From Daphnia carinata (taxonomy: Eukaryota), in the NCBI RefSeq assembly GCF_022539665.2, contig NC_081332.1, positions 7,378,001 to 7,442,000 on the forward strand: a DNA stretch of 64,000 nucleotides, written 5' to 3'. Positions 20,130-61,300 of the stretch are shown here, piece after piece. The notes under the pieces were generated by a model. The model was not told the DNA's origin, did not search any database, and worked only from the letters and a program-made list of their open reading frames with translations. The first letter of the stretch is position 1. Each line of letters starts with the position of its first letter. The position numbers were made by a program, and so were the translations under genes.

Positions 20130-20131
20130 TC

Positions 20132-20144: not shown

Positions 20145-20161
20145 TTTTGAACTCACTTACA

Positions 20162-27528: not shown

Positions 27529-27715
27529 CAGCATTGCCATGTCTCCCCAACCATTTTCTCGCATCCTTTACTTTCAAAAAAAAAAAAAAAGGCAGCATTG
27601 CCATGTCTCCCTGACCATTTCCGCGCACCCACCCTATTTTCCACAAACAGCATTGCCATGTCTCAACAAACGGTTCCTCGCCCAATATATTCCCTCAGCA
27701 ACATTGCCATGTCTC
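27529..27715 (+). repeat. Four spaced copies of the 17-mer CA(G/A)CATTGCCATGTCTC in the pol-env intergenic region
   Basis: Copies start at 27529, 27593, 27648 and 27699. Confidence 0.85.
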
Positions 27716-30060: not shown

Positions 30061-30076
30061 GTATGACGGGGAGCGA

Positions 30077-37795: not shown

Positions 37796-38032
37796 GTCTC
37801 CAACACGTGGTGGGAAGCTTCGAGAAACTCGACGAAGATTTAAAAAAAAAGAAAAACGGGGGACACGATTGCACGCAATGAAACCTTTTCTCAAATCCGG
37901 GAACTCCGACCGCTACCCCTCCTGGGCTGGCGGTTGATTCAGAGTCGGGATGTCTAGAGACAAAAGCACATGCGAGCACAAAACGAAAAAGCGACGAAAC
38001 GAATGCTACTAAAGGTTACCAGGGTCGATTAT

Positions 38033-38050
38033 TCCCGGGTTTCGGCACCA
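38033..38050 (-). promoter_or_regulatory. Primer binding site, tRNA-Phe
   Basis: Minus strand reads TGGTGCCGAAACCCGGGA, 3 nt inside the 5' LTR; 18-nt complement of the tRNA-Phe 3' end. Confidence 0.9.
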
Positions 38051-38372
38051 CTTTGTTACAAACTAAATAAGTCTGTATCGTATAAACGAAAACGAACGAA
38101 AACGAAAATGAAAACGAATAGCGAACTAGTCACAAAATGACTGTATTAAACTTAGCAAAAAATGAGACAGCGTGGGAAAAATGGCGACCCGACAAGTAGC
38201 ACGGTCGAAAAAGAACTGAGCGTCCTTCCACGTCATTAATTATCACGTCTATCAAAAAACAAATGACACATGCATTGCGAAACAATAGGCCGCTAAATTA
38301 AAGAAAAGGAAGGATAAATGTTTGGCGCGCGAAGCCCGAACTGAGTTGCCATGGCAACTCGGTAACACCCTC

Positions 38373-41300
38373 ATTCAGTTCCATACAGTTACTTCAAACC
38401 TTCTTTAGTTTTCATTATCTCGATTAAATTATGGGAACCAGAAGCTTTTAAGACTGTCGGTCTTAAAGCCATTACCGATCTTTCGAGATCTGTAACAAAG
38501 ATCGTGTGGTAAAGCTATATCTCTGTGATTTTTATATTAACAATTGCCTACTGTTGCCAAATAATTCCAAAATTGTCGTAGTTCGACGACACAAAAAATT
38601 TTCCTTATCTAATATTGAAATGTTTTTTTTACTTCATTTAACCTTCGAACGTTTTTTTTACATTTCTGTGGTATAATTTTGATTATTCAAATATCATAAA
38701 CTTAAAAACAAACAATTAACCAAATCATTGTGATAGAATATCTGTATGATTATGCTTCCATTAAAGAATCTATACTTGATCACTTTCCCGGAGATGAAAA
38801 TAATGACTTACATATAAATAAGCTTAACTTAAACCAGCTGAAAAATTGTAAACTATGCTCATCGTTTACGTGAACTTTTTAAAAGTAGCCTACCTATCCT
38901 GTAAGCTATACAGAAAATTCTTTTCAGTTATTCTTATGCAAAAATTTATCCAGGGACTAGATTGGAAACTGCAAGCTAAAGTACGATATAAAGAATAAAA
39001 AAATTTCAACGAACTTGTTGCATCGACACGAGTTAATGTCGTTTGCTTAGAAGCTTTAGAGGCAGACCGTGCAAACGAAAGTTTGTTAGGACAATAGACG
39101 AATCATACGACACCAAACGTGTTAAGTTAAAAGAGCTTAAACAAAGGTACTTGTTCAGAAGAAGATCGTAAATAATGCCGCTGCCAATTTTCGTAATAGA
39201 AATAAACATGCCGAGAATCCAAAATTAGAGAAAGAAGAAATTCAAGATGTTTGAAAGAATGTGATGTTTAAAAAAATTCGGTATCTTTGTGAGGATCGTC
39301 TGATTGACGTCGATATTTAAAAAAAGCTCAGCCTCCTATTTATTTTTTTGTGGTGAAATTGGCCATATATCTAATAATTGTAATAAGTTCTGAAATTCAC
39401 ATAGATCTAATATTCCACGTGCCCCTCAGCGGCAGATGATCCAATAGAAACCAACGTATCGGGAGATGGAACGTGTAAAATAACGACAGATAATAATTCA
39501 TTAAATAAGTCGAAATTTCCAAAAACACTATGTTAGGCATAATTGCAGTAATTAGTCAGGTCAACGGAAAAATTTATGTAAGTAAATCAGAAGACATGCC
39601 TAGCAAAGAACCTAAGCCAGTTTTAATTTCAAAAGGCGACTGAATTTCAAGCACCGTTCTGTAAACTATTAATTAGTTTTTTAATGAATTGTTGGCGCCC
39701 AAAAATTCAGAATTTAGGCTACAAAAAATGCATGATGCAAATGTAATTCAATATTAGCATTCTCCATGGCTTTACCCGAGGTTTTAGTAGAGAAAAAAAG
39801 GGGGAATTAAGATTTTGCGTCGATTTTCGAAAATTAGATAGTATTACGAAAAAAGACTCATTACCCATGCAAAGGATAGACTAAATATTAGACATTTTAT
39901 ATGGAAAGAAATTTTTTACAGCTCTCAACCTAGCCTCTTGCTATTAGCAGATTCAAGTAGATGATCCAGTTATCGAACAAAAACTGCGTTTGTAGTAGAA
40001 AACAATCTCCACTAATTTTAGCCTATTGGATTGGATTTGTGCAATTCACCTGCCACATTTCAACGACTAATGATTTGTGCACTGAAAGACGTTTAAAGAA
40101 GTAAGGCATTAGTTTATTTGGATGGTGCGGATGATTTACGCTATACTCGTGAAATCTTTGCTTCATTGAAAAATGCAGTTTAAAGTTAAAAAACTTAAGA
40201 AATGCCAGTTTAATAAGTGCTGGTAAATTATCAAGGGCCACGGGATCTCGACCGATGGAATTATTCCTGATCCGGGTACAATCGTTAAAATCGTGAATTA
40301 TAAACATTTGTTTCCCTGATAAAGTTATATCATTCCTCGGATTAGCTGGATATTACAGAAGATTTATAAATGATTTTAGATCAATTGCTAGACCGTTCAC
40401 TCACGAACCCCATTAGATTTCAACAGAGAACTTTTGCTTGGGGTACCAGGGAACAAATTTCTTTTGAGAAATTGCACACTCTTCTATTAACACCGCCAGT
40501 TCTCGTTTATCCCAATTTTAATTTAAAACATTTTACTTTTCACCGACATATGTGATTATCGAATGGGAGCTATTCTGTCTCAAATTTAAAATTGCCACTA
40601 GCATCCGATTACGTACTCCAGTAGACAATTAACAAAAGCTGAGGCAAAAATATGGTACCACAAAAAAAATCTCTAGTGGTCATAGATGCAATTATATATT
40701 TTCGACATTTCTTGGATTTTATTGAGTACACTTTTCAATGGCCTTACACCTTTACAATGACTTGAATATCACAAGGATAATAATGGAAGATTATGAATAT
40801 AGGCTATACTTTTAGCTACTACAAATTACGAATTCAAATGTAGGCCTGGACGTATTCACCAAAATACAGATTGTTTAACACGTTTAAAAGTAGCTTCTAT
40901 TCAACCAGGACAAAATAAAACATTGATTAGTGAAAAACAATTAGAAAAGTATGTTTGTTTTGCCATTCAAAACTATTTAGAGAAGGGAGAGCTCGAGGAA
41001 AGTTTACACTATCATTATCGACGTGAACTTCAGGAACTTTTTGGGCCACATTACGCCAGTTTAAGCTAACGGAAATAGTTATACTTTAGTGTTACAGATT
41101 ATTTTGGCCGATTGGTAGAAGCTGTTGCGTCAAAAGATCAGATTGCATAAACGACAGCAGAATGTGTCAGAATGAGCGGAAAACCGCTTTTGTTACACTT
41201 GAGGGTAGCATACTCTAGCCTTGAGGCCGGTACGACTCGTAGGTTGTATACTACGTTATCATACAAGGAATGGGAGCCGCTCTAAGTGTGCTTAGCGCTA

Positions 41301-41680
41301 CGTCTCTATGGCGCGGACCTAGGGATGGCACGTGGTGTTCAACCACTGCGCCACGCCCCTATCACGCTCCTGCTGGTTGGGCATGTTTCCTGTTTTCACC
41401 ATGACGGCATGACGTGCGCCACTGTATCTATCCTACTAATATATAAACCGTGTTTTTATTAGAAAAACGGAGTTTCCTTTGCTTGGTCTTATATTATACT
41501 TGTACCAGGACAATAATAAATAAACGGCTTTAACACTTACAATGGTATGCCAAAATCTATTCCTTCCGACCGTGAAACCAATTTCACGTCGAAATTATTT
41601 AGTAATTTTTGTGAAATTAAAAATCGATCAAGGTCTAACGACTGCTTAGAATCCAGCTAGTAATGAAGAAAGAGAAAGGT
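38373..41680 (+). mobile_element. Heavily decayed Ty3/Gypsy relic related to provirus B (gag-RT-RH-IN remnants)
   Basis: Nucleotide and peptide similarity to provirus B: KESILDHFPGDEN (~38765), FCVDFRKL (~39815), FLGLAGYYRRFI (~40335), RPGRIHQNTDCLTRLK (~40845), GMPKSIPSDRETNF (~41545). Many stops. Confidence 0.8.
41165..41535 (+). mobile_element. Candidate solo LTR inserted in the relic integrase
   Basis: TGTCAG...TTAACA, 371 bp, with TATATAAA and AATAAA. It interrupts the TTAEC...HGMPK segment of IN. No clean TSD. Confidence 0.5.
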
Positions 41681-44667: not shown

Positions 44668-46174
44668 GACACTTACGTTGGACGTAGGTGTTCACAGGGG
44701 ACACGTTCACTAGACGAATTTAGGTCAACTGAATGTCGTCTGTTAGCAGGGTAGGCTAAACAGTTTCCAGCTTTGTATTACTAAACAGCAAGCGGCCTGA
44801 CTTTTGCTCTTTGCCCTATATTTGAACTTGAATATAGGTGGCGCTGAGCTTAGCGAACTCGCCACCAGAGTTTAAGTTGCGATTTTCTACGTTGTTGACA
44901 TTTTTGTGTCGTCTTTGCATGATTGTACTTGTCGCATTTCCAATTTTGAATTTGCGACTTCAGCTCTTGATTTGAACTCCATTACAAGCAGTAGTTACAT
45001 ATTTGCAATACTTAAGTTAGTTGCTTAAGTTAAGAACGTTTACGCTGTGGGAGATTCTCTTTTCTTTTCCTTTGCATAAACTTCTTGATCTTTTTCCGCA
45101 ACCCTAATACATAGTTTAGCCACAGGACGAATACATGGTCTTGGATGTTGGCTGAGCTTCACTTTCACTACTCGAACAACATTGTCCGTAGGGCTGGGAA
45201 TGACTTCAAGCACTTTACCAAACGGCCACTGACCACGCAAAGTATTTGGTTCAATTAGAAGCACCAGATCTCCCACGGTGACGTTAGGCCTATTTTCTTG
45301 CCATTTTCTTCTTTCTGTTAAGTGGGGGACGTATTCACGTACCATCTATTCAAAGAGTGTTGGAGGATGGCTTGGCTTTGTAGAAACTGCTTGGTAGTGT
45401 AAAGCATTCTTTTAGTAATAAAAGAACGTCTTTACGTGATTTAAAGACAAGTTGTAATAAGAAAATGAACTCGGGAAGGCGTTACCACAATGCCGAATAT
45501 ATTTTATTCTTATAGGCCGAAGATAATAAATGAATTACACAGATATAGAATATAAATGGGAAACGGAAATACAAATGGAGTCAGGTGAGTCTAGTCTTAC
45601 CGTCACCGCCGTGGCAAAGATGGAATAAAGATGTCAAACGTTGAAAGAGAAAAGATAAGACAGACGGAACTTGTCAGGCACACAAGAAGCGATGAAAGTA
45701 CTCACAATAATTATGGAATGAGTAACAAAATTGAACTACTATATTTGAAGAAATAGACAGCACTTGTAGCACTAAGAATGAGAACTGGAACTGGAAATAA
45801 CTGAAGGGCTGAAGAGAACTGTATGAGTATAGAACTAACTTTTGGGAACAAAAAGGGCATCCTTTTATACGTTTTACAGGCTTAAGGGAACATAGCATTT
45901 CCGACAAATGAGCTCCGGATGTCGTACGCAGGAACATTTCATATTCACGGAAATGCATGGCGCGACTTCCTACTCATGCAGATTCATCCAATCGGAAATA
46001 AGTAGAGCACAAGGTACAATATAAAAATAGAATTCAACGAAAGGGCAACAACACTTGAATTATGATATCTATAAGAAATAAAGACAACGGATATAATATA
46101 TAATCATATTAATAAAACAAACAATCAAAACACAATATAATTCAATAAAAATTTTATTTTATGACTTCGTTACA

Positions 46175-47893
46175 TCACTCCCGGCGGTGCGAGATTACGT
46201 CCCGTAATAAGACTTCATAAGCGAAATCCGGTTCTGGTTCTTGAATTGGGCGACAGCATAACTTGCTGATGAGTCCGAAAAATCCACAGCCATAACAGAT
46301 GCGTAGAAAAAGTAGACCAAGGAGGCAAAGTACACCAATAAAGAAATAATTTTTAATAGTTTCCCACCAGCTAGTATAAGAGTTCACTCCAGATGCTGAT
46401 AACAAAACGTTAGTTACACTTGGTCGATTATTGGCCGAAATTTCACTCGGCGAATGTTCATTCATAGCTGCGGCAATATCAGCCATAATACTCATATGAT
46501 CCATAATAGTTTCACCATACGCAGGGTTATTTTTATGTTCATAGTCAAAAAATTTCACATCTTCATAACGAAAAGAATGCGCAAGGTCTTGTACCGGTAA
46601 GACGATGCTTGCGTTCACGGGCTTCCAAGTGTTATTGCGAAACGCATAAGGTACGTCATTGAAGTTCACAAATCCATTAGTCCAATAACACGGCGAATAT
46701 TTAACAAGTTCCCAACCATCTAAATTAATGGTATAGTTTTTTAATTTTGGTTGCGGTCCACAAGACGTTATGACGGTCTCGAAGGTCACATTTAAAGGTT
46801 TGCACGATATGACAATGGCAGTTTTTCCAAATGCTTGTAATTTTGTGCATTTGGGTAGATCTAGATGCGAGGCAGCTAACCAGCCATTATACTGTGCTGC
46901 AATAATCGCTCTTACATGTTTGGCCTTTCTTGAATCACATTGTAAGATTTGAATTAATCGTGATAATTCATTTTCATGGTCCGTAAATTGATCACGAATA
47001 TATTGCAAGTTAGCGGGATGATCCAAATTTTGAGCGCTAGGTGGCGCGGGGTCCGCCAATGTTATTGTCAACAAATTTTCCATGATGGCCGCCGTTGTAA
47101 CGAAGAGTTTTGATTGGCCGACGATGTTAAAAGCATCAGATTTCTTTGAAGAAGAGTTTTGTATGGGAATACAACGCGGTTGAAAAGATAAATGAAAATC
47201 CAATTGTTTTTTATCACCTTGAAGGCGAAAAATTCTGTCCTTGCCCGTTTTTCGGATTAATTTCCCAATTCCAGATTCAATGAGATGAGCTTTGGGTTCA
47301 GTACGCTGAGTATAGGTTTTGTCCCAAACCAACGTTAAATGATTATGCGACAAATGACCTGTTGACGCGGAAGCAATACCAATAGGTGTGGAAAAATTAC
47401 CATCTTCAATATCTTGATAAAGACGAATTTTCTCGAGCGCACAATTGACAATTTCCACATCAATTGTTTGTAACCAACGACCGAAAATTTGAGGTTCACG
47501 ATCAAAAACATATTTATTTTCTGTAGCACTCATTTTTTGATCGTCGCACCGGAGACTGTTAATCATATCGTTGCACTCATTAGACGTAATGTCAAGCGGA
47601 ATTTTGTCAGGCACAATCACTAATTGTCCAAAAAAATTCATGGTGACATGGCGTATTTGTTTCCATTTAGCACAAATATGTCCAGGAAAATGAACAGCCG
47701 CACGCACTTCACTATATATAGAATATTGTACGTCAGCGGAATGTTTATCATTTATTTCCGGATGACAATCGGCATCCGAAAATTGAATTATTCCCATTTT
47801 CGACGACTCGGTACAATCACATACGGTCGCGTCAAAGGCTCGAACGTTAAGTCCGTAAAGACATAACAGTAACAAAATGGACAAAGACGACAT
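46175..47893 (-). CDS. env: env glycoprotein of provirus B, intact, 572 aa (class III fusogen-like)
   Basis: Signal peptide MSSLSILLLLCLYGLNVRA, FDATVCDC, GHIC..WK...TMNFFG, GRWLQT, ENEL...LQCD, TM helix YFFIGVLCLLGLLFL, Cys-rich tail and YEVL motif. Confidence 0.92.
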   Translation of the reverse strand: MSSLSILLLLCLYGLNVRAFDATVCDCTESSKMGIIQFSDADCHPEINDKHSADVQYSIYSEVRAAVHFPGHICAKWKQIRHVTMNFFGQLVIVPDKIPLDITSNECNDMINSLRCDDQKMSATENKYVFDREPQIFGRWLQTIDVEIVNCALEKIRLYQDIEDGNFSTPIGIASASTGHLSHNHLTLVWDKTYTQRTEPKAHLIESGIGKLIRKTGKDRIFRLQGDKKQLDFHLSFQPRCIPIQNSSSKKSDAFNIVGQSKLFVTTAAIMENLLTITLADPAPPSAQNLDHPANLQYIRDQFTDHENELSRLIQILQCDSRKAKHVRAIIAAQYNGWLAASHLDLPKCTKLQAFGKTAIVISCKPLNVTFETVITSCGPQPKLKNYTINLDGWELVKYSPCYWTNGFVNFNDVPYAFRNNTWKPVNASIVLPVQDLAHSFRYEDVKFFDYEHKNNPAYGETIMDHMSIMADIAAAMNEHSPSEISANNRPSVTNVLLSASGVNSYTSWWETIKNYFFIGVLCLLGLLFLRICYGCGFFGLISKLCCRPIQEPEPDFAYEVLLRDVISHRRE

Positions 47894-49510
47894 TTCTACA
47901 TACGCAAAAAAAACAATACATAAGAAAAATTTAAACCGAGCAGTGGCCAAAAATATTGTACATCGACATTGGAATCTTTTTTAATATATATATATATAGA
48001 TATTGAGAATAGAATAAAAGACAAGAGAAAAAAGAAAGTAAAAGTAATAAATTTTGCCGTCGACTCCCAAAAGGTCAACTATTTCCCGTCGGTTTTTCAG
48101 TAACTGCGCTACGGCAAAGGATAGGGAATAAAAGGGTGTCGCATTATAACTGTGTTAAAGAGGAAAAAACGCGCGTAATTATCAAAAAGAAATAATAGAA
48201 AAAGATTGATTCGTTTAATTATGCGGAGAAGAAAAGAAACGTTAAAAATTTCACGGCGGAAAAAGTCCGTGCGCGAAAGGTCAAACTCGGGTTTTCATTT
48301 TTTTCTAAGTCCAACGCAGGGAAAAGGGACTTGGCTAGGAACGAAGGGAAAAGAATGTGAAATACGAACGGGTGGGCGGAGCCAATGCGCCTTGAGGGGA
48401 AACAAGGAATTTTCCGAATACGAATGCAAGTGTATGGAAAGGCTTGTTAGTTGCCCTCCGGCAAAAAGAGGGAACAAAAATATTTTTCTCTACTTGGTTC
48501 AAAATGTCTGTACGCTTCAAAATTGAAGAAGAAGGAACGGAAGGAGGTGTGAAAGGGAGATGATAAAACTCAACGAAAGGAAATATATTTCTTAGCTCGC
48601 TGGGAAGTGTTGGGGCAGCTTCAGTGTGTAAGAAAAGGAAAGTGAAAAGAAGTAAGAAAAGGAGGTTGATAAAAGTAAACGAAAGAAAATATATCCCCTC
48701 ACTTGCTGCGAAGTGTTGGAATAGTTTTAGTGTTCAACGGAAAAGACAAGTGAAAAGAAGTGTATAGTGAGGGTCGCGTTGGGGAAAATCTGGGCGGTAG
48801 TTACATTCCATAAGAAGAAGTACAGAAAAAGTGGCTTTGGGGTGCTGTAAAAAGAAGAGTTGTGTGTGCGAAATAATTTTGTGCAACTATAACAGAAGTT
48901 TTTGTTTTCCTAGAGTGATTTTGTGCACTGCACGAAATATATATTGTGTTAGTGTTGTTATTTTATGAAATGCGAACCAATACACGAAAATTTTTTTTTT
49001 TTCAACTACCTTAAACGCTCTTTTACTATCTGGTTATAATTTTTTATATTTTTGTTTTCTCAAAAAAAAAAAATGTATATTATGTTAGTGTCGTTATTTT
49101 ATGAAATGTGAAACAATACGTAATTTTGAAACTTCCTTAGTACTCATTTTGACAATTCGAAAAAGAAATAGGTTGGTGAACAAAAGGGAAGGTAAAGTAT
49201 AAAACAAAATAAGTGCAAATACACAACAAAAATTTACGTATTCCCTTATTACTTTCATTTCATTATTTCCTCCTTTTTTTTTTTTTTTTTTTTTTTAACA
49301 GGTGATTTGTATATACGTCAGGTGATATAGGTATCATGACGTCAGAGCACCTTTATGTCTGTTTTTTACAAAGAGGAAAAACATTCAAATACAATATGAA
49401 ATCAAAATCTGTATATAATATTTAATAGATTACAACGGGGCACATAAGATACAAGTATAAAAGGGATGAATGTGGGTAAAACAATAACATAAAGACAATG
49501 TAACGAAAGG

Positions 49511-50017
49511 CTAATCACCGATGGTTATGACCACCGGGCCGCTGGGGCGCCTTCCGGCCCGTCCGCAGGTGGGGCATACGTCTTGTATCCACCATTGGGA
49601 TAACGCCCAATTGTGTGGTGAAGGCATACGGTTTTGCGGGTCAAGCTCCAGGATCTCCTGAAGTTTTTCTACTGATCGTTTCCATTGACCCTCGTTTAGA
49701 GCTTTGTGTAGCTCTAGTTTTAGAATTCCGGTTCGAAGGTTCAGGTAGTGCAGGTTGAGGTCGCGTTGGGTAGGCCAGTTAGGGGGAACGGCCAAGAGTT
49801 CCGAGAGTGGCCTGAGTCGGATCGGGTTGGGGTGCGCCGGTGTGGGGGGCGGGTTGCTGTGGTTCCGGGGCGGAATAGATGGTGGTGTAACACGGCCAGA
49901 TGGCCCCGCTTCCGGCTCCCCGAAATCAATTGGCCTCAGCCGCCAACCACTGTCGGAACTATGCCGACGAGTAGTGTATGATGGTAGCCGATGGCCTCTG
50001 TTGTTATCCTTTGGCAT
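49511..50017 (-). CDS. Provirus B accessory ORF-b, 168 aa (Pro-rich N-terminus; TPR-like hairpin + CxxC)
   Basis: Sense-strand ATG ORF forming a GC-rich island in an AT-rich spacer; C-terminal domain paralogous to 50938-51531. Confidence 0.7.
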   Translation of the reverse strand: MPKDNNRGHRLPSYTTRRHSSDSGWRLRPIDFGEPEAGPSGRVTPPSIPPRNHSNPPPTPAHPNPIRLRPLSELLAVPPNWPTQRDLNLHYLNLRTGILKLELHKALNEGQWKRSVEKLQEILELDPQNRMPSPHNWALSQWWIQDVCPTCGRAGRRPSGPVVITIGD

Positions 50018-50937
50018 TTTTCGGAAAGAAAAAAAACTTTTCTTGACAGAACGACGTTACGAGTTGCGATGAAGGATTGATTCCCGGCCATCCAACAGCG
50101 TCGAATATATTTTAAGATATTGTTGTCGTCAGCTGTGTTGAACAATTTCTCGGAATCGGGAACTAGTTCCCTTTGTTTTTCAAAAACGACACGTTTAATG
50201 CCTTATTTTAATTGCTTCTTCTTGATGTTGTAAGCAAATCTTCCGTTGCCGAATCCACTATTGATGCAAGCGAGAGCAGATGTAATCTTATAGGGGAACA
50301 TTCGGACAGTAGCGGACTACAAATTCCCCGAAACACAGAAACATATACAAAATTCATGTATATCAAACATTAATATATATATCAGGAGTAACAAGTGGTA
50401 CAATTAATCATAAATAGGAGAAATCACACAGCTCATCATCGAAATTCATATATATATACATATATACGTGTGTACATATATATATATATGCGTTTCCTGC
50501 ATTCGCACCTCTTGTCATCGTACCCTTGTCCGATTTGATTACAGTAGAGTAATACTATTCTTCAACTATTGATATTTGCATTCAATTTTTCCTACTCTTA
50601 TTGTTATATTTTTATTTGTTTTATGTTAAGTCCTCCTCAACCATGTATCATAGAAGAGAAAACTCTCCTATCATCACAGGGAAATAGTAAATAATAATGA
50701 AGTGAAAAAAAATTATACGAGATTCCGAACCTAAGCGTAAATATATTTGAACGTCGGACGAGCGAATATAAGAGATGCCATGCCATACAAGTCGGTTGAA
50801 AATACAAACATGAATATGAAAGAGAATAATTGTAAGAACTCATACACAAAAGGATAACATTACCCATACACAAAAGCACTACAACAAAGAGAATAAAAGA
50901 ATTTATTAAAGTGACGAAAATATCGGGTCATCTTCCT

Positions 50938-51531
50938 TCAATCCTTCTTACAAAATCTGCAACGGTAGGCCGGGTTCCAGTCTTCTGGAAACCAACCATA
51001 AAGGGGTGGACTTCGATTTTCGGGATCTAGATCCAGAATCTTCTTCAGCTTGAGCACTGCTTTTTTCCAGTTTTCTTGGCGGATATGGAGTTGTAGCTCC
51101 TCCGCCAACTCCCTTGTCCGTCGACGCATTTCTCTGTTGTAGCGGCGCTGCTCCCGACGCCAGTTAAATTCGTTTTCCGAGTCCTGTGAATGAGCACCTG
51201 GGCTTCGATAATTATCCCACATCTCATCCCACAGTTTTTCATCGTCGTCTCTTTTCCTTTTCTCGTCCTTAGTCAATATTGGCTGTAGAAATTCTTCCAC
51301 GGCCTTCTCCCGCCGTATCTCCTTTTCTTCGTCAGTTTCTAACTCTCCTTCTTCTTTTGTCCCGTGACGTTTGGTCGCCGGTTCCTCGTTACCGGTGAGT
51401 GGATTAGATGTCGTCGCCACTTCGATGGTTTGGGCGATGTCCCACTGGTTCAGTTCCACCGCGCTGCCGGAATCCATGTTGGAATCAAGATCACCAAACA
51501 CAACTGTTGAATATCTGTCACTGTATGTCAT
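50938..51531 (-). CDS. Provirus B accessory ORF-a, 197 aa (acidic/basic N-terminus; TPR-like hairpin + CxxC)
   Basis: Sense-strand ATG ORF just after pol; ends WKKAVLKLKKILDLDPENRSPPLYGWFPEDWNPAYRCRFC. Confidence 0.72.
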   Translation of the reverse strand: MTYSDRYSTVVFGDLDSNMDSGSAVELNQWDIAQTIEVATTSNPLTGNEEPATKRHGTKEEGELETDEEKEIRREKAVEEFLQPILTKDEKRKRDDDEKLWDEMWDNYRSPGAHSQDSENEFNWRREQRRYNREMRRRTRELAEELQLHIRQENWKKAVLKLKKILDLDPENRSPPLYGWFPEDWNPAYRCRFCKKD

Positions 51532-51583
51532 GGGCTTATATAGTCCCTTCTAACCGTAAGAGAGCAGCCAAGAGAGATTCATA

Positions 51584-54500
51584 TTAAAATCCATATCGAA
51601 TAGGCTTCCTGCGATTTCTTTGTGGGCGTCCGGTGTTCGCGACTGTTTCAGGTGCATCCTTTTCCAAATTTTCTTGCAAATTTTCAGATTGTATCTCATT
51701 TGGTGGACACTTTTCCGGCGTGTCTTTCGCACAATTTTCAGAATCGTGTGAATCCAGATGAATGACCTCCATCTTCGTCGATTGTTCAGTCGAATTCGTA
51801 TTTTTTTTTCGTCGCGAGAGTTCTCGCCTCTTTTCCGGTGTGTATTTTCAAGTCGTCGCCAAGAAGTGTAGTGTTTACATCAGGAGAAGGGTTTACAATT
51901 TCTTGGATAACATACAAATCATCAACTTCATCTATAGGCTTATCCAGATTTTCTGATTCATCAATTGTTTGAGTTGAAATTGTTTTACGAAATCGATTCT
52001 CAAACTCAGAAGACGATTCAAATGGAGGACAATGCTCGGTCTTCCAAAGCATTGTTTCATATAACGGTTTTAATCTGTTAACGTGAGTACGTTGACAGAT
52101 ATAGGAATTATCTGCTATATCTACTGTATTATTAGAATATACCTTAACTATCCTATACGGCCCTTTATATTTAGAAGTGAATTTCTTACAGTCCCCATCT
52201 TTAACTACACGAATATCAAATAACACTCTATCGCCCACAGCGTACCGCTTTTCCTTTGCACGTTTGTTATATTGTTCCCTCTGGCGCTCCCTAGCTTTTC
52301 CGCTTTCTTCCCTAACCCTTTGGAAACTATATCGCAAACGTTCCGCTAAATTACCCACATAATCAGAAGAAGATTTAAAAGTTTTTGGGGACGCATCCAG
52401 AAATTCATTAATTGGAATATTCGGGTCCCTACCATGCAGCAAATAATAAGGGGTGTCAAGTGTTGACGCGTGCACTGAACTACGATATGCAAATAATACG
52501 TCGTCTAACATATCCTCCCAATTGGAATGTTCCCCATCCCTTAATTCTTTCCTTAACATTGTTGTTAATGTTCTATTAAATCTTTCGGTCTCCCTATTAC
52601 TGGCTGGATTATATGCAGTCGTTAATCTTTGATCGATCTTTAATTTTTTGCAAAAATATCGAAATAATTTTGACGTGAAATTTGTTCCACGATCAGATAA
52701 AATAGCTTTCGGCATCCCATGACGGACAATAATGGTTTTATATATACACTCAGCTGTTGTTAACGCAGTTTGATCTTTTAAAGCGACAGCTTCTACCCAT
52801 CGGCTGAAATAATCAGTAATAACTAAAATATAATTATTTCCGTTAGGCGAAATCGGAGTGATAGGCCCTAAAAAGTCCATTCCAATTACTTGAAAAGGAG
52901 CTTTGGCGACTTCATGAGGGTGCAAAACTGCTCTATATGTAGAGGAAGTGTTAGCTATACATATTTCGCAAGCTTGGCAATACTCTTTAATATTGCCCCT
53001 CATGTTAGGCCAATAATAATGGTTTTTTACTTTTAAATACGTCTTATAAAATGCTAAATGCCCTCCCATCGGTGCGTCATGTAATTCCTTGAGCACTAGA
53101 TGGCGGAGCTCTACAGGTAACACTAATTGATAATTTACGTCGCTGCGCTTGCTATTTGACAAAGGCAACTCATGCCGATAAAGAGTACCTTCGATGACTT
53201 CAAAATATTCAATTTCTTTTACCCAATCTGGCCTAGCTTGTTGAAAAATTTCATCCAATTCTCCTTTCTCCAAATAATTCCTAATAGCTATACAAAGTTC
53301 ATCTTCTAATTGTTTCTCACAAGTAAACTTAATATTTTTCCCAGTTTGAATACTCGCCACCTTTAAACGTGACAAACAGTCAGCATTTTGGTGAATACGA
53401 CCAGGCCTATACTTTAACTCATAATTGGTCGCAGCTAACAATATAGCCCATCGTCCTAATCTCCCATTGTTATCTTTTTGATCCTTAAGCCACTGTAGTG
53501 GACGATGATTACTAATAATCTCGAATGGCTTATCCAAAAGATAATGTCGAAAATGTTTAATTGCATCAATCACTGCTAAAGCTTCTTTCTCTGTAGTGGC
53601 ATATTTCATCTCAGCTTTTGTTAATTGTCTACTAGAATACGCTATCGGATGTTCGTGGCCATTTTGTATCTGCGAAAGTACCGCTCCTATTCCATAATCA
53701 CATGCGTCTGTGAAAAGTAAAAATTTTTCATTGAAATTGGGGTAAACTAATACTGGGGGCGTAACGAGAGAAGTTCGTAATTTTTCAAAGGCATTTTGCT
53801 CCTCAGTACCCCAAACAAAAGGTATTTTGCTAAGGTCTTTATGAGTTAATCGGGTCAATGGCTTAGCTATTGATCCAAAATTTTGAATGAATCTCCTATA
53901 ATATCCGGCTAATCCCAAAAATGATCTTACTTCGTCTACAGAAGAAGGTGTTTTATAATTCACTATTTTATCGATTTTCCCTGGATCTGGCTTAATTCCC
54001 TCAGTCGAAATGACATGGCCTAAATAATTTACCGATCGTTTAATAAACTGGCATTTTTTAAGTTTTAATTTTAAATTTGCATCCTGTAGTAGTTGAAAAA
54101 TTTCCCGAATATCCCTCAAATGGTCCTCGAAATTATCCGAAAAGATTATTACATCATCCAAATAAACTAATGCCTTACTTCCCAAAACGTCTTTCAGTAC
54201 ATAATTCATTAGTCTTTGAAATGTGGCAGGTGCATTGCACAAGCCAAATGCCATACGCTTAAATTCGTATAGATTATTTTCTACAACAAATGCTGTTTTT
54301 TCTATAGCTGGCTCATCTACCTGAATTTGCCAATATCCCGCAGCTAAGTCGAGAGTAGTAAAAAATTTCTTCCCATACAATTTATCCAATGTTTCATCTA
54401 TCCTTGGCATAGGAAACGAATCTTTCTTTGTGATACTATTTAATTTCCAATAATCGACGCAAAACCTGACTTCTCCACCTTTTTTCTCAACTAAAACCAC

Positions 54501-55574
54501 AGGTGAAGCCCATGGCGAATGCGAGTATTGAATTACATTCGCATCAAGCATTTCCTGTACCTTATCCTCCAATAATTTTCTTTGATTATTTGTAACTCTA
54601 TATGGGCGTTGTCGGATAGGGCCTCGTCCCTGTGTATCAATTGTATGTTTTATAAGATCTGTGTTGCCTAATTCTGAATCTTTTGCAGCGAACAAGTCGT
54701 GAAAGTCATTTAATAATTTAGCGAGCTGTGTTTGAAATTCGGGGTCGACCTCCGGAATTACAATAGGCTCTTTTACTACGTTAGGCCTGTCCTCAACTTT
54801 ATTTAAAGAAATTTTTCCGATCGTTCGAGTAGTAGCTTCGATGCCACCTAACTTCGTACCCCTGGGGATTTTGACTTGATTTAACGAATGATTTTCAACT
54901 AGAATATTATATTTTCCATCTCTCGATACTTTTCCTACGAACTCCTCAATAAAAACGCCGGCCGGCAAATCTTCTGCTGGGGTAAATATAAAAGCTGTAT
55001 TCGGCGGAACAAACGGAAATGACCCTTTCATTTGCGCGGCAATTACTAGCGACGTCTGACGAGATAACGTCGTCTTTTTGACCGAAGTAACTGCCATGTC
55101 CGGAATGCTAGAAATAGCTGATCCCTGCTTATCTCTTGCTAAATAAATGCTCTTGGCTTCTCCATCAAGCCGAAATCCGTGTTTCTGGATTGCGTCCCAT
55201 CCAAGGATACAGTCCTCAGAAACACCATTTGTAACAATAAACTCTTGTTCCAAAACTGACTCTCCGTATCGCACGGGCAAAGTAACGCTCCCCAGCGTAT
55301 GTAATTTTTTCTCCCCTACATCGTATAAATCAAAATCAAGTTGACTGCAGATCACTTGACCTCTTTGGGGTAATTTCTTAAATAATTTCTCATGAATAAT
55401 ACTCTTAGACGCTCCTGTATCGAATAATGCTTGAAGTGGGATCTGATGAATTTTCAATGGAATTCTCGGTGTCGATTCATTCGTTATGGTTGTTAATTTT
55501 GCGACTTGTCGGGATTTACACGGAGGCTCCCTATCAACTGACCCGAAGTTACAGTTGATACCTATTGGTTTCCC
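51584..55574 (-). CDS. pol: pol of provirus B (PR-RT-RNaseH-IN), open for >1200 codons; IN tail shifted at a homopolymer ~51805
   Basis: LFDTGAS, YLDD, FTDACDYGIG, HDAPMGGH...CEIC, MDF/SDRG/ETER and GPY motifs. The tail RPQRNRRKPIRYGF* lies in 51584-51772. Confidence 0.95.
55532..55574 (-). promoter_or_regulatory. -1 programmed ribosomal frameshift signal (G GGA AAC + stem-loop)
   Basis: GGGAAAC, a 7-nt spacer, then a TATCAACTG-(11 nt)-CAGTTGATA hairpin. The -1 frame is open into pol. Confidence 0.85.
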
Positions 55575-58356
55575 TGGTTCGGAGGCGGACTTGGAATGTT
55601 AGGCCTACTCTGGTTTTTTGCCTTTGTACAGTTGTTTGATTTATGGCCAATTTCCCGACATGAATAGCATATTGGTGGCTGAGCTTGTTCTAAACTTTGC
55701 CGTTGATATTTGTAACAATTTGTCTGCGAATGACCCTTATATCCACAAAAATTGCAAATCAGCTGTGGCTGTGTAGGCTTGTGGTGAGAATCACCAGCTG
55801 GTTTTGAAACAGGGGTTTTATGAGCTGTAGGCCTATCCGGGAATTTATTGAAAGATTGTGCGCCATTATTATTGTTATTCTGCTGCGGAGGTCTCCAATT
55901 CCTATCCTGGTTACTGTCACTAGTTTGGAACGAAACTTGCTTCTTATACGGTGCGCTTGATACGTTTTTATCAAATTGCAATTGCCTTACCGCTTGCGTT
56001 AGCTCAAGAAGTGCGCCCTTAATTTCCTCCTTTTCAGTTTTTGGGTCATCGACTTGTTTGCTTCCCTGTCTGATATTTGCTACGGCATTTTTGACGAATT
56101 CTTTTTGCTCCAATATTATTTCCTTTAGTTCTTTTAATTCTGCATCTTTGGTGTCAGGAGGCTCAGTCACTGCCCTAATAAAATCATGTTTTTCCCTATC
56201 CGTTTCCATGGCCTCCAGTCGCAATGCATACATTCGTGTCGCCGAAATAAGATCATTAAAATTTTTAAATTCTTTATATTTAACTTTCGATTGTAATTTG
56301 GAATCCAACCCCTCTATAAATTTTTGCATAAGAATTATAGCAAAAGATGCTTCTGAATAGCCTACAGGATATGCGCGTTTGAAAATTTCCTGCAAACGAT
56401 GAGCATATTCTATAATCTTTTCCCCTGGCTTACGCTTAGCTTTATTAAACTTCTTTTGATAAAAGTCAGCATTTTCGTCACCATGAAAATGATCAAGAAG
56501 AGATTCTTTAATTAAAGCATAGTTGTGAGGATGACCCTTCAAGGTTGCCTGAATAATCGAGAAAGCTTTATCAGCCAATTTTGCCCTTAACATCTGAATA
56601 ATTTTCCCCTCAGACCAACCTGATCCTTCTACTATACTTTCAAAAGATTCTAACCAGGAGTCAAAACGCACAAGGGGATTTCCAGAAAAAGAAGGAAGTA
56701 GCTGTAAACGGGAAAAAGTGTGTTGATTATTTTGGAAATCGTTCAAATCATCGACTATGGCCGCTCTTGATCGAGAACAAGATTCCGCCATGTTTGGATT
56801 AAATTTTAAAAAATTCAAAGCTCTTCCCTGGGAATTCTGAGGGTGTTCTGAAATGTCGTTCATAATTGCCTTAAATTCCCCTGCGTTGTATCCGACTGGC
56901 TGGGTGGGTGGGCTCGAGGACAGGGTAGAGGGTACGTAGGACAGTGTAGGGTTTGTGACTGATTGAAATGATAGTTTCTTCTGCGCGACCGTTTCCTCTT
57001 TGGAATGCTTCCCGACAGCGGCGATGTTTGTTGGATTGGCGTGCTTTGTTGCTGCGTTGGTCTCGTTTGTATGAACGTCAGCGATTGTCTCAACTTTTGT
57101 TCCGTTTGCGTGATTATTGGCTTGATGTCGCTCGCCTGCTGTGCGAAGAACGGGTTGTTGGCTTCCGGAAAATTGTTCAGTTTGTCCAAAAGGAATATGA
57201 TTTCCGGCTGTAGTACCTCCAAATTGTTGATGAGTTGTAGTTTCTTTAGGTATGCCGCTAGGTTGGCTACTTCCTTTAGGAACGTTCGTTGGGACGCCAG
57301 CAAGATCTCTTCCAGATGAAGGGATGTGTCGCTCACTTTGGTGATGATTTCCACGTATCTCCCTTCCTCGTCTCTGTCGGTGATGTCCCGTCTTGGAACG
57401 AAGCCGAATAGTTCTCGCTTTGTTGTTGGTGTGACCACTTGAAGGTCTATTATGTTGTAAATTTGTCCGTGTAGGCAAGTCAGAACCTGTCTCGCGTGTC
57501 GTGTGAAAATTTTCTTGAGCTCCGTCACAATTTCCTCCGTCTGCTTCTTCGTCTTCTTCGTGATCGGTACACTGGCTTTCACCTCCAGAATGGATGTCAG
57601 ATACTTCAGAAGTGTCTTCGGTTGTTTCCAATCCGTTAGTGTTGTTTGGCGTCGTAATTCCTCTGAATGTTGCGCATCAACACGACAAGATGATCCCAGA
57701 TTTTTGGGTCGCTCGATTGGAAGTCCTTCTCCCTCTCCTTGAGGCTCTTGATGGCTAGCAGTAGGAACGGTAGCTGGCTGTTCGGTAGTTGGAAGATGCT
57801 GTCCCCTTTCTTCTTGATCTCTTGGAACAGGTGCTGAAGGTTGACGTTGAGCTGGTCTTCCATTGGTTGTCTTCTTTTTTGCAAACAAACCCGAGACTTG
57901 TTCAAAAAAAGCGTTTGTTGGGGAAGTGTTTGTGGAAACGGTTTTCTTGGGTGAAAGACGGTTTACTAGTTGGGCTATGAAGGAAGGAGAATTTTTTACG
58001 GTCGAGGTATCAGCTTTACTTTGAGCTCGTGGTTTGCGAACGTTTGAAAGGTCTACTGGCTTTACTAACTCATACGCAGAGTTCGATCTTAACTTTCTTA
58101 GCTGGGGATTATTCGGAATTGCACTAGGCTTCAAAACAGGAGAGGCAGATTTCCTGATAGTTTCTGTTGCTTTTCTCGAGGTTTTATTACCCGTAAACTT
58201 ATCAGATCCAGCAAGATTTGAAGTGGAAGTTTTATCAAAATTAAGGGTTCTGGCTACACCTTCATCAATTTGAATAACTGGCTCAATAGGACTTTTAATA
58301 GTGGATACAGGTGTGCGAGAAAGTTTATGCTTACTAGAAAAAATATTATCCGTCAT
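55562..58356 (-). CDS. gag: gag of provirus B (one frame break near 57000)
   Basis: ATG at 58356; LPSFSGNPLVRFDSWLESFE capsid region; zinc knuckles CNFCGYKGHSQTNC and CYSCREIGHKSNNC. Confidence 0.85.
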
Positions 58357-61300
58357 TGTGAGTGAGTTCGATAGATCGCTAAAAATATTCCCATAAATAA
58401 ATGGGAAACGGAAATACAAATGGAGTCAGGTGAGTCTAGTCTTACCGTCACCGCCGTGGCAAAGATGGAATAAAGATGTCAAACGTTGAAAGAGAAAAGA
58501 TAAGACAGACGGAACTTGTCAGGCACACAAGAAGCGATGAAAGTACTCACAATAATTATGGAATGAGTAACAAAATTGAACTCACTATATTTGAAGAAAT
58601 AGACAGCACTTGTAGCACTAAGAATGAGAACTGGAACTGGAAATAACTGAAGGGCTGAAGAGAACTGTAGGAGTATAGAACTAACTTTTGGGAACAAAAA
58701 GGGCATCCTTTTATACGTTTTACAGGCTTAAGGGAACATAGCATTTCCGACAAATGAGCTCCGGATGTCGTACGCAGGAACATTTCATATTCACGGAAAT
58801 GCATGGCGCGACTTCCTACTCATGCAGATTCATCCAATCGGAAATAAGTAGAGCACAAGGTACAATATAAAAATAGAATTCAACGAAAGGGCAACAACAC
58901 TTGAATTATGATATCTATAAGAAATAAAGACAACGGATATAATATATAATCATATTAATAAAACAAACAATCAAAACACAATATAATTCAATAAAAATTG
59001 TATTTTATGACTTCGTTACAGTAATGACGTTCATGTTTTCCACGTCGGCCAGCTGGAGGGGCAAGTACGGCCGAGCGCCATCGTATAGAAAGTGATTTGG
59101 CGTAAAATGATCAGGATCTTCGGGATCCATGCTTAAGTGCGTTAACGGCCGGCCATTTAGCAGAGCTGCCACTTCAACAACGACGGTCCGTAGTACTTGG
59201 TCTGTGACTAGGCAATTACCTATGCTGGTTTTCATTGCCCGCTTACAGGATTGTACAATCCTTTGCCGAGTGGGAACATCACTCAACATCACCGAAGTGG
59301 GACCTTCGTGAAGCGAAGTGCCATTCTACTTTTTGACAGGCCATCATCGTCTGAAGCTCTTCGTATTTAGTAACAAGTTCTTCCAAAGCCTGTCGCAACT
59401 CCTGCTCGGCAGCAACAAAGTTTGTTCCATTGTCACTGTAAAAAACCCTCGGTTTTCCGTGCAGGCTGACAAAACGAGAAAAACAGAGTAGGAACTCCTC
59501 CATACTGAGCCCGTTGGCTATTTCCAAGTGGATTGCTCGTGTCATCAAGCACGTGAATAGGCTAACCCAACGTATTTCAATGTCGTCTTCCTCCTCCATC
59601 GTCTCGTACAGTTAAAGGTCCAAAGTAATCGACCCGGTGTACGTGAACGCGGGCAGATGAGTTGTTAAACGGTGGACTGGTAGTGAAGCCATCAACGGAG
59701 GGCTAGGCTTCGACGACGTGCATTTGCAAAGCCAGCAATTGTTGATTACGGATTTTACCACCTTGCGTCCAGAAAGTATCCAATAGCGTGAACGGAGGTC
59801 AGTCAATAATCTCTCTGTTTTGACGTGCAGATGTCTTATGTGATAATCCCAAACTATTCTCCGTGTTAAAAGTTGCGTCGCTGGTAGGAGTATGGGGTGC
59901 TTAGCTGCATAATCTATTGGCGCGTGAAGTATAGGTCCGCCTATTCGCAACTCTCCGACTTCATCCAAGAAGGGCTTGAAGGTGCGAAGCTTTGATCTGA
60001 GTGGCAATTCTAGATTCTTGCGTAGGGGCGTAGAATTCTCCAGCAAAGGCCGATTCCTGTGCACGTATGATGCATACTGTCAGCGTTGTTACTATTTCTT
60101 CTAACGTTAACTCTCCGACAATGGGTTTTTCTCCACATAATTTGGCTCGAGCGTTGTTGGAAAATCTTTGATTCCAGGCCAACACTCGTTGAAGTTTCAA
60201 CAAGTTGGAAAAACGTACAACACATCGATTGATGACGTGGTTTTCATCTTCCGTTTTGACTGCCAAGATAGGAATCACGTTTACATCCCGTTCTTCTGGC
60301 TCCGTATTTTCTTCCCAAATGTGCCACTCTGAGGGGTCTAGGTTCAGGAACAGAGGTCCTCTGTGAAAGTTGACCAACTCGTTGACATCCTTTGGGCCGA
60401 TACTTCTACTGCAGAGGTCCGAAGGGTTTAAGCCTCCAGCAACATGATGCCATTGTCGGTGACCTATGTTCCGGAGTATTTTACCGATGCGGTTGTTGAC
60501 GAAGACTTCAAATCGTCAGGTTTTTGTAATGGATCCACCGTAGCACCGTTCGTGAGTCCGTGTGGAAAGTCACTTGTCGCAAGTCGATTTCTAGTTCACG
60601 ACAAATCGTGAGGTCGATGCTGAGACCTTCTATTGCATTCATCAGCGTGACGTATGTTTTTGACATAACGAACTACACGTTGATGGACTGATTCTCGAAT
60701 ACGGTACGGAAATAGGCTACTGCTCGGTAACCTTTGGAGCTTGCATCCGTGAAGACGTGGAAGTGCTGTGGAGTCCAATGTCCGCGTTTGAAACGGAAGC
60801 ATCTCGGAACCGAAAAAGACTCTAAATTTTTCAGATGGTCGTACCAGCAATAGAAACGTTGCCTCAATGTTTCAGGTAAGACGTCGTCCCAACCAATCCG
60901 TTCTTCGTTTGTCCAGATGTCTTGGAGCAAAGACTTCATTATGAAGACAACAGGTGCAACCATTCTCAGCGGGTCGTAGACACTAGAGATGATGCTTAGG
61001 AAGGCTCGCTTGGTGAGGGTTTCGTTGTTCGACGGCTTCCGAATCTAGAACGTCAGCATATCTCTCTCTCTGTCCCACATTACTCCAAGCGTTCTTTCAA
61101 CGGGGAGTTTCTCCAAGTCCAGATCCAGGGTTGGTGAAGCGAGGCCGCATTCTCGTAACGCTGCTATCACCGTTCTCGTTGACGACGTCCATTTTGTCAA
61201 GTTGAACCCGCCTAACTGAAGAAGAGATTTCATCTGGCGGGACCGTTTGACTGCCTCGTCTTCAGAGTCGAAGAAGTCGGAGTAATTGTCGACGTAAAAC

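What the first reader, a model, noticed from the sequence alone, without database searches (positions are those of the whole stretch)
49511..51531. Two paralogous accessory genes (TPR-like hairpin + W..W..CxxC) between pol and env: a 'complex' Gypsy retrovirus
Seen: two sense-strand ATG ORFs whose N-termini are unrelated low-complexity sequence but whose ~55-aa C-termini align. ORF-a: LAEELQLHIRQENWKKAVLKLKKILDLDPENRSPPLYGWFPEDWNPAYRCRFC. ORF-b: LKLELHKALNEGQWKRSVEKLQEILELDPQNRMPSPHNWALSQWWIQDVCPTC. Conservation at the protein level despite divergent DNA argues for selection. Established: W..A...L..IL.LDP.N matches the TPR helix-B consensus, and accessory genes between pol and env are typical of complex retroviruses but rare in Metaviridae. 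Inference: each protein has only one CxxC, so they may homo- or heterodimerise through a shared zinc and act as host-protein adaptors (e.g. anti-silencing, RNA export, transactivation).
Basis: partly seen in the sequence, partly recalled or inferred. Interest (0 to 1): 0.88.

Follow-up and report, generated by a model that had tools for sequence, protein, structure and literature searches.

The report
Duplicated accessory gene in water-flea retrovirus
A young, envelope-carrying jumping element, likely from a water flea, carries two related small extra genes of an apparently undescribed family that also sits beside the envelope gene in other Daphnia elements; the proteins likely act as adaptors that recruit host WW-domain proteins rather than as the proposed zinc-linked pair.

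Summary
Observation confirmed. Both ORFs (197 and 168 aa) lie sense between pol and a class III-type env of a 13.5-kb Gypsy element with 99.5% identical LTRs. They share an ungapped 74-aa domain (E 2e-9) with a coding-constraint pattern. Thirteen short homologs were found; all named ones are Daphnia. Four of 9 named genes neighbour an env homolog, and one D. magna locus also holds two diverged copies, so this is a real accessory family. The family's conserved loop is a PY motif (PPLY); 2 of 3 lineages that lost its Tyr carry PPPY or LPSY elsewhere. Best reading (0.35): soluble adaptors for host WW/Nedd4-family proteins. Main rival (0.25): CERV/Rev-like nuclear regulator. No expression data, no dN/dS. 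The element class is published (PMC13524379); my searches did not find this gene family described. The scan has noted other accessory-gene-rich Gypsy elements on other DNA, not this family.

The parts
58397..59020 (-). 5' LTR (624 nt, starts TG)
   Evidence: 621 identities, 2 mismatches, 1 gap to the 3' LTR
56860..58356 (-). ORF0, 498 aa, upstream of and overlapping the long gag frame; one PSAP
   Evidence: (no Pfam family near cut-off)
55562..56863 (-). gag (open frame reaches back to 57676)
   Evidence: PNMA-like capsid E 1.1e-5, zf-CCHC E 6e-4
51786..55598 (-). pol, order PR-RT-RH-IN (Gypsy type)
51535..51570 (-). candidate expression signals for ORF-a: pyrimidine-rich TAG acceptor ending 51550 and a TATATAAG box at 51542 (untested alternatives)
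   Evidence: no initiator matched my pattern downstream of the TATA box
50938..51531 (-). ORF-a, 197 aa: acidic disordered arm with KRKR (res. 91), SP..DS cluster, then the shared domain
50944..51165 (-). shared domain in ORF-a (res. 123-196): long helix + short helix hairpin, LDLDP, PPLY loop, W..W, CxxC
50998..51009 (-). PPLY (PY motif) of ORF-a, res. 175-178
50950..50961 (-). CxxC of ORF-a (optional in the family)
50902..50907 (-). AATAAA about 30 nt after the ORF-a stop, followed by a T/GT-rich stretch (candidate poly(A) site; 1 of 9 sense AATAAA in the element)
49511..50017 (-). ORF-b, 168 aa: Pro-rich arm, diverged copy of the shared domain
   Evidence: 25-34% to other members
49976..49987 (-). 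LPSY (PY-type motif) of ORF-b, res. 11-14; its core loop reads PSPH
49559..49780 (-). shared domain in ORF-b (res. 80-153), CxxC at 49565-49576
46175..47893 (-). env, 572 aa, class III-type fusion glycoprotein; TAG acceptor candidate at 47896 just before its ATG
   Evidence: Rhabdo_glycop_FD 16.5 bits, cut-off 22; 61%-identical relative P0256 passes at 24.9
45552..46174 (-). 3' LTR

Best explanation
ORF-a and ORF-b are two diverged copies of a small accessory gene of a young env-carrying Gypsy element, likely of a Daphnia-type host, and their proteins likely act as soluble, non-enzymatic adaptors whose PY motif would recruit host WW-domain proteins, most likely Nedd4-family ubiquitin ligases. 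Shown: the ORFs, their paralogy, the coding-constraint pattern, the family, and its position beside env in other elements. Predicted: a long-helix/short-helix hairpin followed by a loosely ordered loop that carries PPLY. Inferred: expression from subgenomic RNA (acceptor or internal promoter before ORF-a); the PY loop binds a WW domain; the hairpin or the variable N-terminal arm holds the client (a host restriction factor to be ubiquitinated, or Gag/Env at the budding site, since ORF0, gag, pol and env hold no PY motif); duplication lets two arms serve two clients. The CxxC would be an optional cap. Step odds: real accessory family about 0.9; non-enzymatic adaptor about 0.75; PY-WW recruitment about 0.35.
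For: Family and context: 13 single-domain homologs of 90-264 aa among the 150 listed hits; best single-domain score 52-116 bits for members against at most 25 for others; 4 of 9 named genes have an env homolog as neighbour by locus tag; gene model P0256 joins the domain to env and lies next to a second, different copy P0075; P0052 joins it to Integrase_H2C2, E 3.4e-10. Constraint: 45% DNA identity, codon positions 32/42/26 of 74, BLOSUM 108 in frame against at most 15 in the other five frames, 14 of 24 identical residues use different codons. Motif: core PPLY in 13 of 19 rows (near-duplicates included), [LP]PxY somewhere in 17 of 19, against 14 of 684 unrelated 170-aa segments; P0028/P0156/P0144 have PPLF in the core but end in PPPY, ORF-b has LPSY; chance that 2 of 3 Tyr-less lineages carry one is about 0.006, post hoc. 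The loop lies just past the confident hairpin (pLDDT 85-94, then 57-64). No hydrophobic segment (19-aa hydropathy at most 1.17). LPSY and PPCY are the Nedd4-binding motifs of Drosophila Commissureless (PMC12101832, passages); viral PY adaptors for Nedd4-family ligases are known (PMC5849660 and PMC6874086, abstracts).
Against: The core Tyr is replaced by Phe in two lineages (9 Y, 2 F, 1 H of 12), which fits a packing role, and R173, W180, W185 around it are as conserved, so PPLY may be structural. P0020 has no PY motif at all. The core column is inherited, not independent evidence, and the compensation test was devised after seeing the data. Known viral PY adaptors are membrane-anchored or matrix proteins; these have no anchor. 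K[KR]x[KR] in 7 of 12 members points to the nucleus rather than a budding site. The second env-bearing element in the window lacks the domain, so it is not needed by all such elements. No dN/dS over sister copies could be computed and the codon test is biased by choosing the frame on protein similarity. Context rests on locus tags and predicted gene models, not on DNA I could read.
Confidence: 0.35

Rival explanations
1. Nuclear regulator of the element's own RNA, working like CERV of Cer1 or Rev: made from a subgenomic RNA, imported to the nucleus, switched by proline-directed phosphorylation, and licensing export or transcription of unspliced genomic RNA.
For: The element has a candidate env acceptor, so it likely faces the unspliced-RNA export problem. 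K[KR]x[KR] in 7 of 12 members, shuffle mean 1.3. TPxSPDS directly before the long helix in 4 of 14 rows, a looser SP..DS.....W in 5 including ORF-a. ORF-a's long helix has 10 Arg. CERV is nuclear, needs a phospho-Ser and has a Cys loop and a helical hairpin (PMC10309623 sections 9, 15).
Against: Arg richness of the helix is not conserved (1 to 10 Arg, net charge negative in several members). ORF-b lacks both the basic motif and the SP cluster. CERV is 517 aa with three domains; no sequence link was tested or seen. The one stable hairpin near the ORF-b start (z -3.05) is not exceptional: 5 of 223 windows of the element scored below -3.
Confidence: 0.25
2. Silencing suppressor that hooks Argonaute/Piwi proteins through GW/WG and acidic-Trp motifs.
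For: GW/WG 19 times in 12 members against a shuffle mean of 6.8; 7 in the N-terminal arms of 5 of 12 (mean 1.8). That such motifs bind Argonaute is recalled, not from a call.
Against: Much of the count is one conserved column and related sequences; ORF-a and ORF-b have one GW each; P0022 and P0028 have none.
Confidence: 0.1
3. One reading: TPR-derived adaptors that homo- or heterodimerise through one zinc shared between two CxxC half-sites.
For: Both window ORFs keep CxxC at the same place; 4 homologs do too; weak TPR_2 hits in 3 of 12 domain rows; the best-fitting short structural match is a McsA hairpin (39 aa, rmsd 0.6, 31% id, E 2.8), recalled as a UVR-type dimerising hairpin.
Against: CxxC absent in 8 of 13 homologs; in the D. 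magna two-copy locus P0075 has none. Positions matching TPR 8 and 27 are Leu and Ile in both ORFs and most members; only one unit is present.
Confidence: 0.1
4. ORF-a and ORF-b are exons of one spliced mRNA giving a two-domain protein whose two CxxC form an internal C4 zinc site.
For: A GTAAG donor lies at 50951 inside the last Cys codon of ORF-a, and one acceptor of the same phase early in ORF-b would keep the frame and the Cys.
Against: That acceptor is a GAG with 6 pyrimidines in 19, with better AGs of other phases upstream; ORF-a has a stop and a candidate poly(A) signal; ORF-b has its own ATG with A at -3; no fused two-domain homolog among the proteins held (fused lengths were not searched separately).
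Confidence: 0.05
5. A passenger: a fragment of a host or other-TE gene that sits in this copy only and has no function for the element.
For: GC of the ORFs (49%, 57%) differs from pol and env (38-39%); several database homologs look frameshifted or truncated (P0025, P0047, P0075, P0144); absent from the sister element in the window.
Against: Homologs at 25-56% identity keep the same motif and sit beside env relatives 55-67% identical to this env; no host gene family with the whole motif appeared among the 150 listed hits; frame-specific similarity.
Confidence: 0.05

Closest known systems
Branchiopoda errantiviruses with HSV/gB-type ENV (Chary and Hayashi, PMC13524379)
   Same: Ty3/gypsy gag-pol-env order, class III-type env, Daphnia relatives; 13 of the 30 Branchiopoda supplement rows I saw are ENV_HSV, 9.8-11.6 kb LTR to LTR where LTRs are given.
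   Different: This element is 13.5 kb with ORF0 and two spacer ORFs. The passages and sections I read do not describe spacer ORFs, and the motifs are not in its 7 supplements. Its sequences and figures were not visible to me, so identity with a named element is untested.
CERV of C. elegans Cer1 (PMC10309623)
   Same: Accessory, non-structural protein of an env-bearing Gypsy-type element; basic NLS-like motif, proline-directed phospho-site, Cys motif, helical hairpin.
   Different: CERV is 517 aa, spliced from the gag region, three folded domains, invariant cysteines; here 170-200 aa, encoded between pol and env, one small domain, optional cysteines.
Viral and cellular PY adaptors of Nedd4-family ligases (HSV UL56, HCMV UL42, HHV-6 U24, arenavirus Z, Drosophila Commissureless)
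   Same: Small proteins with low mutual similarity whose shared feature is an [L/P]PxY motif (PMC5849660, PMC6874086 abstracts; PMC12101832 passages).
   Different: Those are membrane or matrix proteins with tested binding; these are predicted soluble and untested. No such adaptor in a retrotransposon turned up.
Additional ORFs of LTR retrotransposons (plant aORFs, PMC7264820; bdelloid ORF3s, PMC5408684; insect sORF2, PMC11952523)
   Same: Conserved extra ORFs downstream of pol.
   Different: Those replace env or encode enzymes or membrane proteins; here a duplicated soluble orphan lies between pol and an open env frame. Abstracts or listing only were seen.
TPR repeat (PF07719) and UVR-type hairpins (McsA, ClpB middle domain)
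   Same: Two-helix hairpin ending in L-x-L-D-P; close local fits.
   Different: Single unit, below Pfam cut-off, unusually long first helix (33 residues), followed by a conserved PPLY-W-W tail that neither has.

Membership tests
Ty3/Gypsy (Metaviridae) | LTRs flanking gag and pol with PR-RT-RH-IN order | tested here: met
Ty3/Gypsy (Metaviridae) | tRNA primer-binding site, TG...CA ends and target-site duplication | tested here: inconclusive
   LTRs start TG; no clear CA end, TSD or PBS by eye
HSV/gB-type errantivirus (Chary and Hayashi) | open env frame of class III type downstream of pol | tested here: met
   572-aa ORF with N-terminal and C-terminal hydrophobic stretches; Rhabdo_glycop_FD weak here, above cut-off in a 61%-identical relative
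HSV/gB-type errantivirus (Chary and Hayashi) | C2c cysteine-bridge architecture and placement in their POL tree | not tested
   their sequences are not in the supplements read; env was not folded
TPR protein | Pfam TPR score above gathering cut-off | tested here: not met
   best 16.8 bits against 27; 3 of 12 rows hit at all
TPR protein | small residues at repeat positions 8, 20, 27 (consensus recalled) | tested here: not met
   position 20 is small, but 8 is Leu in 12 of 15 and 27 is Ile in 14 of 15 rows
TPR protein | tandem array of repeats | tested here: not met
   one matched stretch per member
UVR-type hairpin (McsA/UvrB/ClpC) | sequence or fold match above background | tested here: inconclusive
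   McsA top Foldseek row, E 2.8, rmsd 0.6 over 39 aa; Z 6.4, tied with many helical hairpins; UVR not listed by Pfam for 12 rows
Zinc-bridged CxxC dimer (zinc hook/clasp type) | invariant CxxC half-site | tested here: not met
   6 of 15 rows, 4 of 13 homologs
PY-motif adaptor of WW-domain proteins | [L/P]PxY present and retained across the family | tested here: met
   17 of 19 rows, near-duplicates included; absent in P0020 and truncated P0052
PY-motif adaptor of WW-domain proteins | motif exposed in a flexible segment | tested here: inconclusive
   pLDDT 57-64 in the loop, but flanking Trp residues are conserved
PY-motif adaptor of WW-domain proteins | PY-dependent binding to a WW domain | not testable with these tools
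   needs a binding assay
Rev/CERV-like export factor | conserved Arg-rich RNA-binding helix | tested here: not met
   1-10 Arg, variable net charge; CERV itself has no such motif, so this lowers 'Rev-like' more than 'CERV-like'
Rev/CERV-like export factor | nuclear localisation and requirement for genomic RNA export | not testable with these tools
   only an NLS-like pattern, 7 of 12

The most novel reading that the evidence does not exclude
A clade of water-flea errantiviruses is a 'complex' retrovirus lineage with its own duplicated accessory family that supplies, in trans, PY motifs missing from Gag and Env and so hijacks host Nedd4-family ligases (or Yorkie) to remove a restriction factor or drive budding: the first WW-adaptor accessory proteins of any LTR retrotransposon, with motif loss in one place compensated in another.
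Probability: 0.3. Interest if true: 0.78.

Novelty: new variant of a known kind. Interest (0 to 1): 0.52.

Why it matters
Vertebrate complex retroviruses use accessory genes between pol and env to steer host machinery; in invertebrate Gypsy elements only a few accessory proteins have a known job. A small, conserved, duplicated family in a genetically tractable crustacean, with one short testable motif, gives a direct handle on which host pathway these elements must subvert, and on whether 'complex' genome plans evolved independently in Metaviridae. If the PY reading fails, it remains an undescribed orphan accessory family of a published element class.

Tried and rejected
No whole genome is held, so sister copies and dN/dS were out of reach. 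Sequencing runs: none was listed, no RNA holder listed; this says nothing on expression. DNA context searches found no locus in viral contigs or metagenome contigs. A single-sequence word search found nothing; a second-round profile gave 9 proteins, all already known; fused or longer forms were not searched separately. ESM Atlas gave no usable hit. Fold searches: no match at E 0.001 in PDB or BFVD; VIA-align best Z 7.6 (Vta1 C-terminal hairpin) among many tied helical hairpins, and the tail 57-80 was barely tested: the fold is not diagnostic, and an ESCRT link from it was rejected. PDB sequence search gave only summed 3-5-bit matches to TPR arrays. Two copies of the ORF-a domain with Zn: no verdict, score 0.12, mark 0.32, alignment not used. 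PHROGs, NCBIfam and Rfam: nothing notable. A domain tree of 10 rows (P0075 and P0047 left out as truncated) was unresolved, 0 starred branches, so the order of duplication is unknown. Spacer ORF pieces P0230/P0241 looked similar by eye but did not score against the profile. An RRE-like RNA element was not supported. ORF0 of the two elements show no BLASTP similarity. A nuclear-export pattern in the second helix was dismissed by reasoning as common to amphipathic helices (not computed). Literature searches for the motif strings found nothing relevant.

Full report
Observation. The window holds a 13.5-kb LTR element on the minus strand, LTRs 58397-59020 and 45552-46174, with 621 identities, 2 mismatches and 1 gap, so the insertion is young. 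Gene order: ORF0 (498 aa), gag, pol (PR-RT-RH-IN), ORF-a (50938-51531), ORF-b (49511-50017), env (46175-47893). ORF-a and ORF-b align without gaps over 74 aa, 24 identical, E 2e-9; 0 of 5000 shuffles matched the score. Their N-termini are unrelated.

Are they genes? In the aligned 74 codons DNA identity is 45%, with 32, 42 and 26 matches at codon positions 1, 2, 3 (position 2 vs 3, p 0.013); BLOSUM score is 108 in frame and at most 15 in the other five frames, which all contain stops; 14 of 24 identical residues use different codons; two such ORFs arose in 0 of 1000 shuffles of the spacer. The frame was chosen on protein similarity, so this test leans in favour. True dN/dS could not be computed for want of sister copies.

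The family. A two-sequence profile against 1.84 billion representatives gave 158 hits at E 0.001, 150 listed. Thirteen are short single-domain proteins (90-264 aa) with the whole motif; two others that I read were unrelated repeats; the remaining 135 match in several weak stretches and were not annotated one by one (inferred to be TPR arrays; best single stretch 25 bits against 52-116 for members). Nine member genes carry names: 8 Daphnia magna, 1 D. sinensis; the rest are unnamed assemblies. Pol pieces of D. magna and D. sinensis gene models are up to 89-90% identical to this pol and the best env hits are D. magna, so the host is likely a Daphnia-type cladoceran (inference).

Context elsewhere. 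I could not read DNA around the homologs, but locus tags give neighbours: GHT06_007135/007136, OUZ56_010700/010702 (consecutive protein accessions), 016302/016301 and 000266/000267 each pair a domain gene with an env homolog: 4 of 9 named genes. I saw 66 env representatives and up to 15 members of 10 clusters, so the other 5 are untested, not negative. Gene model P0256 (016301) itself carries the domain in front of env, next to the different copy P0075, so a two-copy arrangement recurs, if these models reflect one element. P0052 joins the domain to a Gypsy integrase zinc domain. The neighbouring envs are 55-67% identical to this env, whereas the second env-bearing element in the window (19398-30673) is 41-45% from all of them and has no domain in its 1.5-kb spacer. 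The gene thus marks one sub-clade.

Anatomy. AlphaFold2 gives a 33-residue helix, a 14-residue helix (pLDDT 85-94) and a loosely predicted tail (57-64); most of the ORF-a arm is low-confidence. Conserved columns are W124, T139, L142, L146, I150, W155, A158, LKxILDLDP, R173, P175, P176, L177, Y178, W180, W185. CxxC is in 4 of 13 homologs, absent in 8, one truncated, so it cannot be the core of the family. The TPR likeness is a single unit at 13-17 bits against a cut-off of 27, with Leu and Ile at positions 8 and 27, small in TPRs (consensus recalled). The closest short structural fit is a McsA hairpin (E 2.8), tied with many helical hairpins. No member has a membrane segment.

Mechanism. The loop after the hairpin reads PPLY, a PY motif, in 13 of 19 rows; 17 of 19 have [LP]PxY somewhere, against 14 of 684 unrelated segments. 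Three lineages lack the core Tyr: the P0028 group ends in PPPY, ORF-b has LPSY at residue 11, P0020 has none; by composition 2 of 3 would happen with p about 0.006, a post-hoc figure. LPSY is one of the two Nedd4-binding motifs of Drosophila Commissureless (PMC12101832, passages); herpesvirus UL56-type proteins and arenavirus Z recruit Nedd4-family ligases by PPxY (PMC5849660, PMC6874086, abstracts). ORF0, gag, pol and env of this element have no PY motif; ORF0 has one PSAP. I therefore read the proteins as soluble adaptors: PY for a host WW protein, hairpin or arm for a client (0.35). Against: Tyr-to-Phe in two lineages and the conserved flanking Trp residues suggest packing; there is no membrane anchor; an earlier scan note (e1-7557305) reports a PPxY idea failing in another retroelement family. 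The main rival is a CERV/Rev-like nuclear regulator (0.25): NLS-like K[KR]x[KR] in 7 of 12 members, TPxSPDS before the helix in 4 of 14 rows, and CERV's nuclear, phospho-dependent role (PMC10309623, abstract and sections 6, 9, 15); but Arg richness is not conserved. The two can overlap if the WW partner is nuclear. Argonaute hook (0.1), zinc-bridged dimer (0.1), spliced a-b fusion (0.05) and passenger (0.05) follow; the remainder is unassigned.

Expression signals (all untested). ORF-a has a pyrimidine-rich TAG at 51550 and a TATATAAG box 11 nt before its first ATG, which would favour Met20 as start if it is a promoter; AATAAA follows the stop at 50907, one of 9 in the element; ORF-b has A at -3 but no YAG within 70 nt upstream; env has a TAG two bases before its ATG.

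What is known. The element class matches the Branchiopoda HSV/gB-type errantiviruses of PMC13524379 (abstract, passages, section 6 part 2, section 8, 30 Branchiopoda rows of supplement 1, motif search of 7 supplements); I found no spacer ORFs described there, but its figures and GitHub sequences were not visible. PMC2996953 (parts 1-2 of 6) lists D. pulex Gypsy elements up to about 13 kb without accessory genes in the parts read. Extra ORFs as such are known (PMC7264820 and PMC5408684, abstracts; PMC11952523, listing). Searches found no description of this family or of a PY adaptor in a retrotransposon; the library lacks most subscription papers and Repbase.

Verdict. Real, conserved, duplicated accessory gene family of a published element class: new variant of a known kind, interest 0.52; 0.78 if PY-WW recruitment is shown.

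Noticed in passing
window 55562-58425 (-) and 20108-22650 (+): Both env-bearing elements have a long ORF0 that overlaps an N-terminally extended gag frame by several hundred bases; the two ORF0 show no BLASTP similarity though the gag cores align at 37%. Possible dual-coding or spliced gag region, reminiscent of Cer1 cerv/gag.
   Followed up: partly
window 19398-30673 (+): Second env-bearing Gypsy element, LTRs about 98% identical, several frame breaks in gag, pol and env; lacks the domain; its spacer holds a 105-aa and a 227-aa open frame.
   Followed up: partly
window 51584-51847 (-): An 87-aa open frame overlaps the end of pol in another frame and ends in a basic RPxRxRxxPxRY-like stretch, recalled as typical of Gypsy integrase tails; no Pfam hit.
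   Followed up: no
window 47894-49510: The 1.6-kb ORF-b to env spacer has a 106-nt tandem repeat (48561-48761), a 23-nt A run on the sense strand (49274-49296), three strong sense acceptor candidates (48335, 48150, 48109), a 132-aa ATG-less sense frame with a hydrophobic stretch (48335-48733) and a basic 101-aa antisense ORF (48221-48526, no Pfam hit). More accessory exons may hide here.
   Followed up: no
window 58385-58410 (-): No obvious tRNA primer site after the 5' LTR; TTCCCAT...ATGGGAA forms a short inverted repeat across the LTR end.
   Followed up: no
window 45040-45345 and 59005-59600 (-): The element is flanked by BEL/Pao-type integrase sequence (DUF5641, E 3e-20), so it likely sits in a nest of elements; no clean target-site duplication.
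   Followed up: partly
window 49931-49996 and 54101-54280 (-): Stable predicted RNA hairpins at the ORF-b start (z -3.05) and within RT (z -5.1 with 20 shuffles).
   Followed up: partly
P0188, P0230, P0234, P0241: Daphnia gene models join other, unrelated short ORF pieces to env, hinting at further spacer genes in sister elements.
   Followed up: partly
window 33857-38350 and 38751-41664: A further 4.5-kb LTR-bounded BEL-like element and a fragment of a third related Gypsy pol.
   Followed up: no
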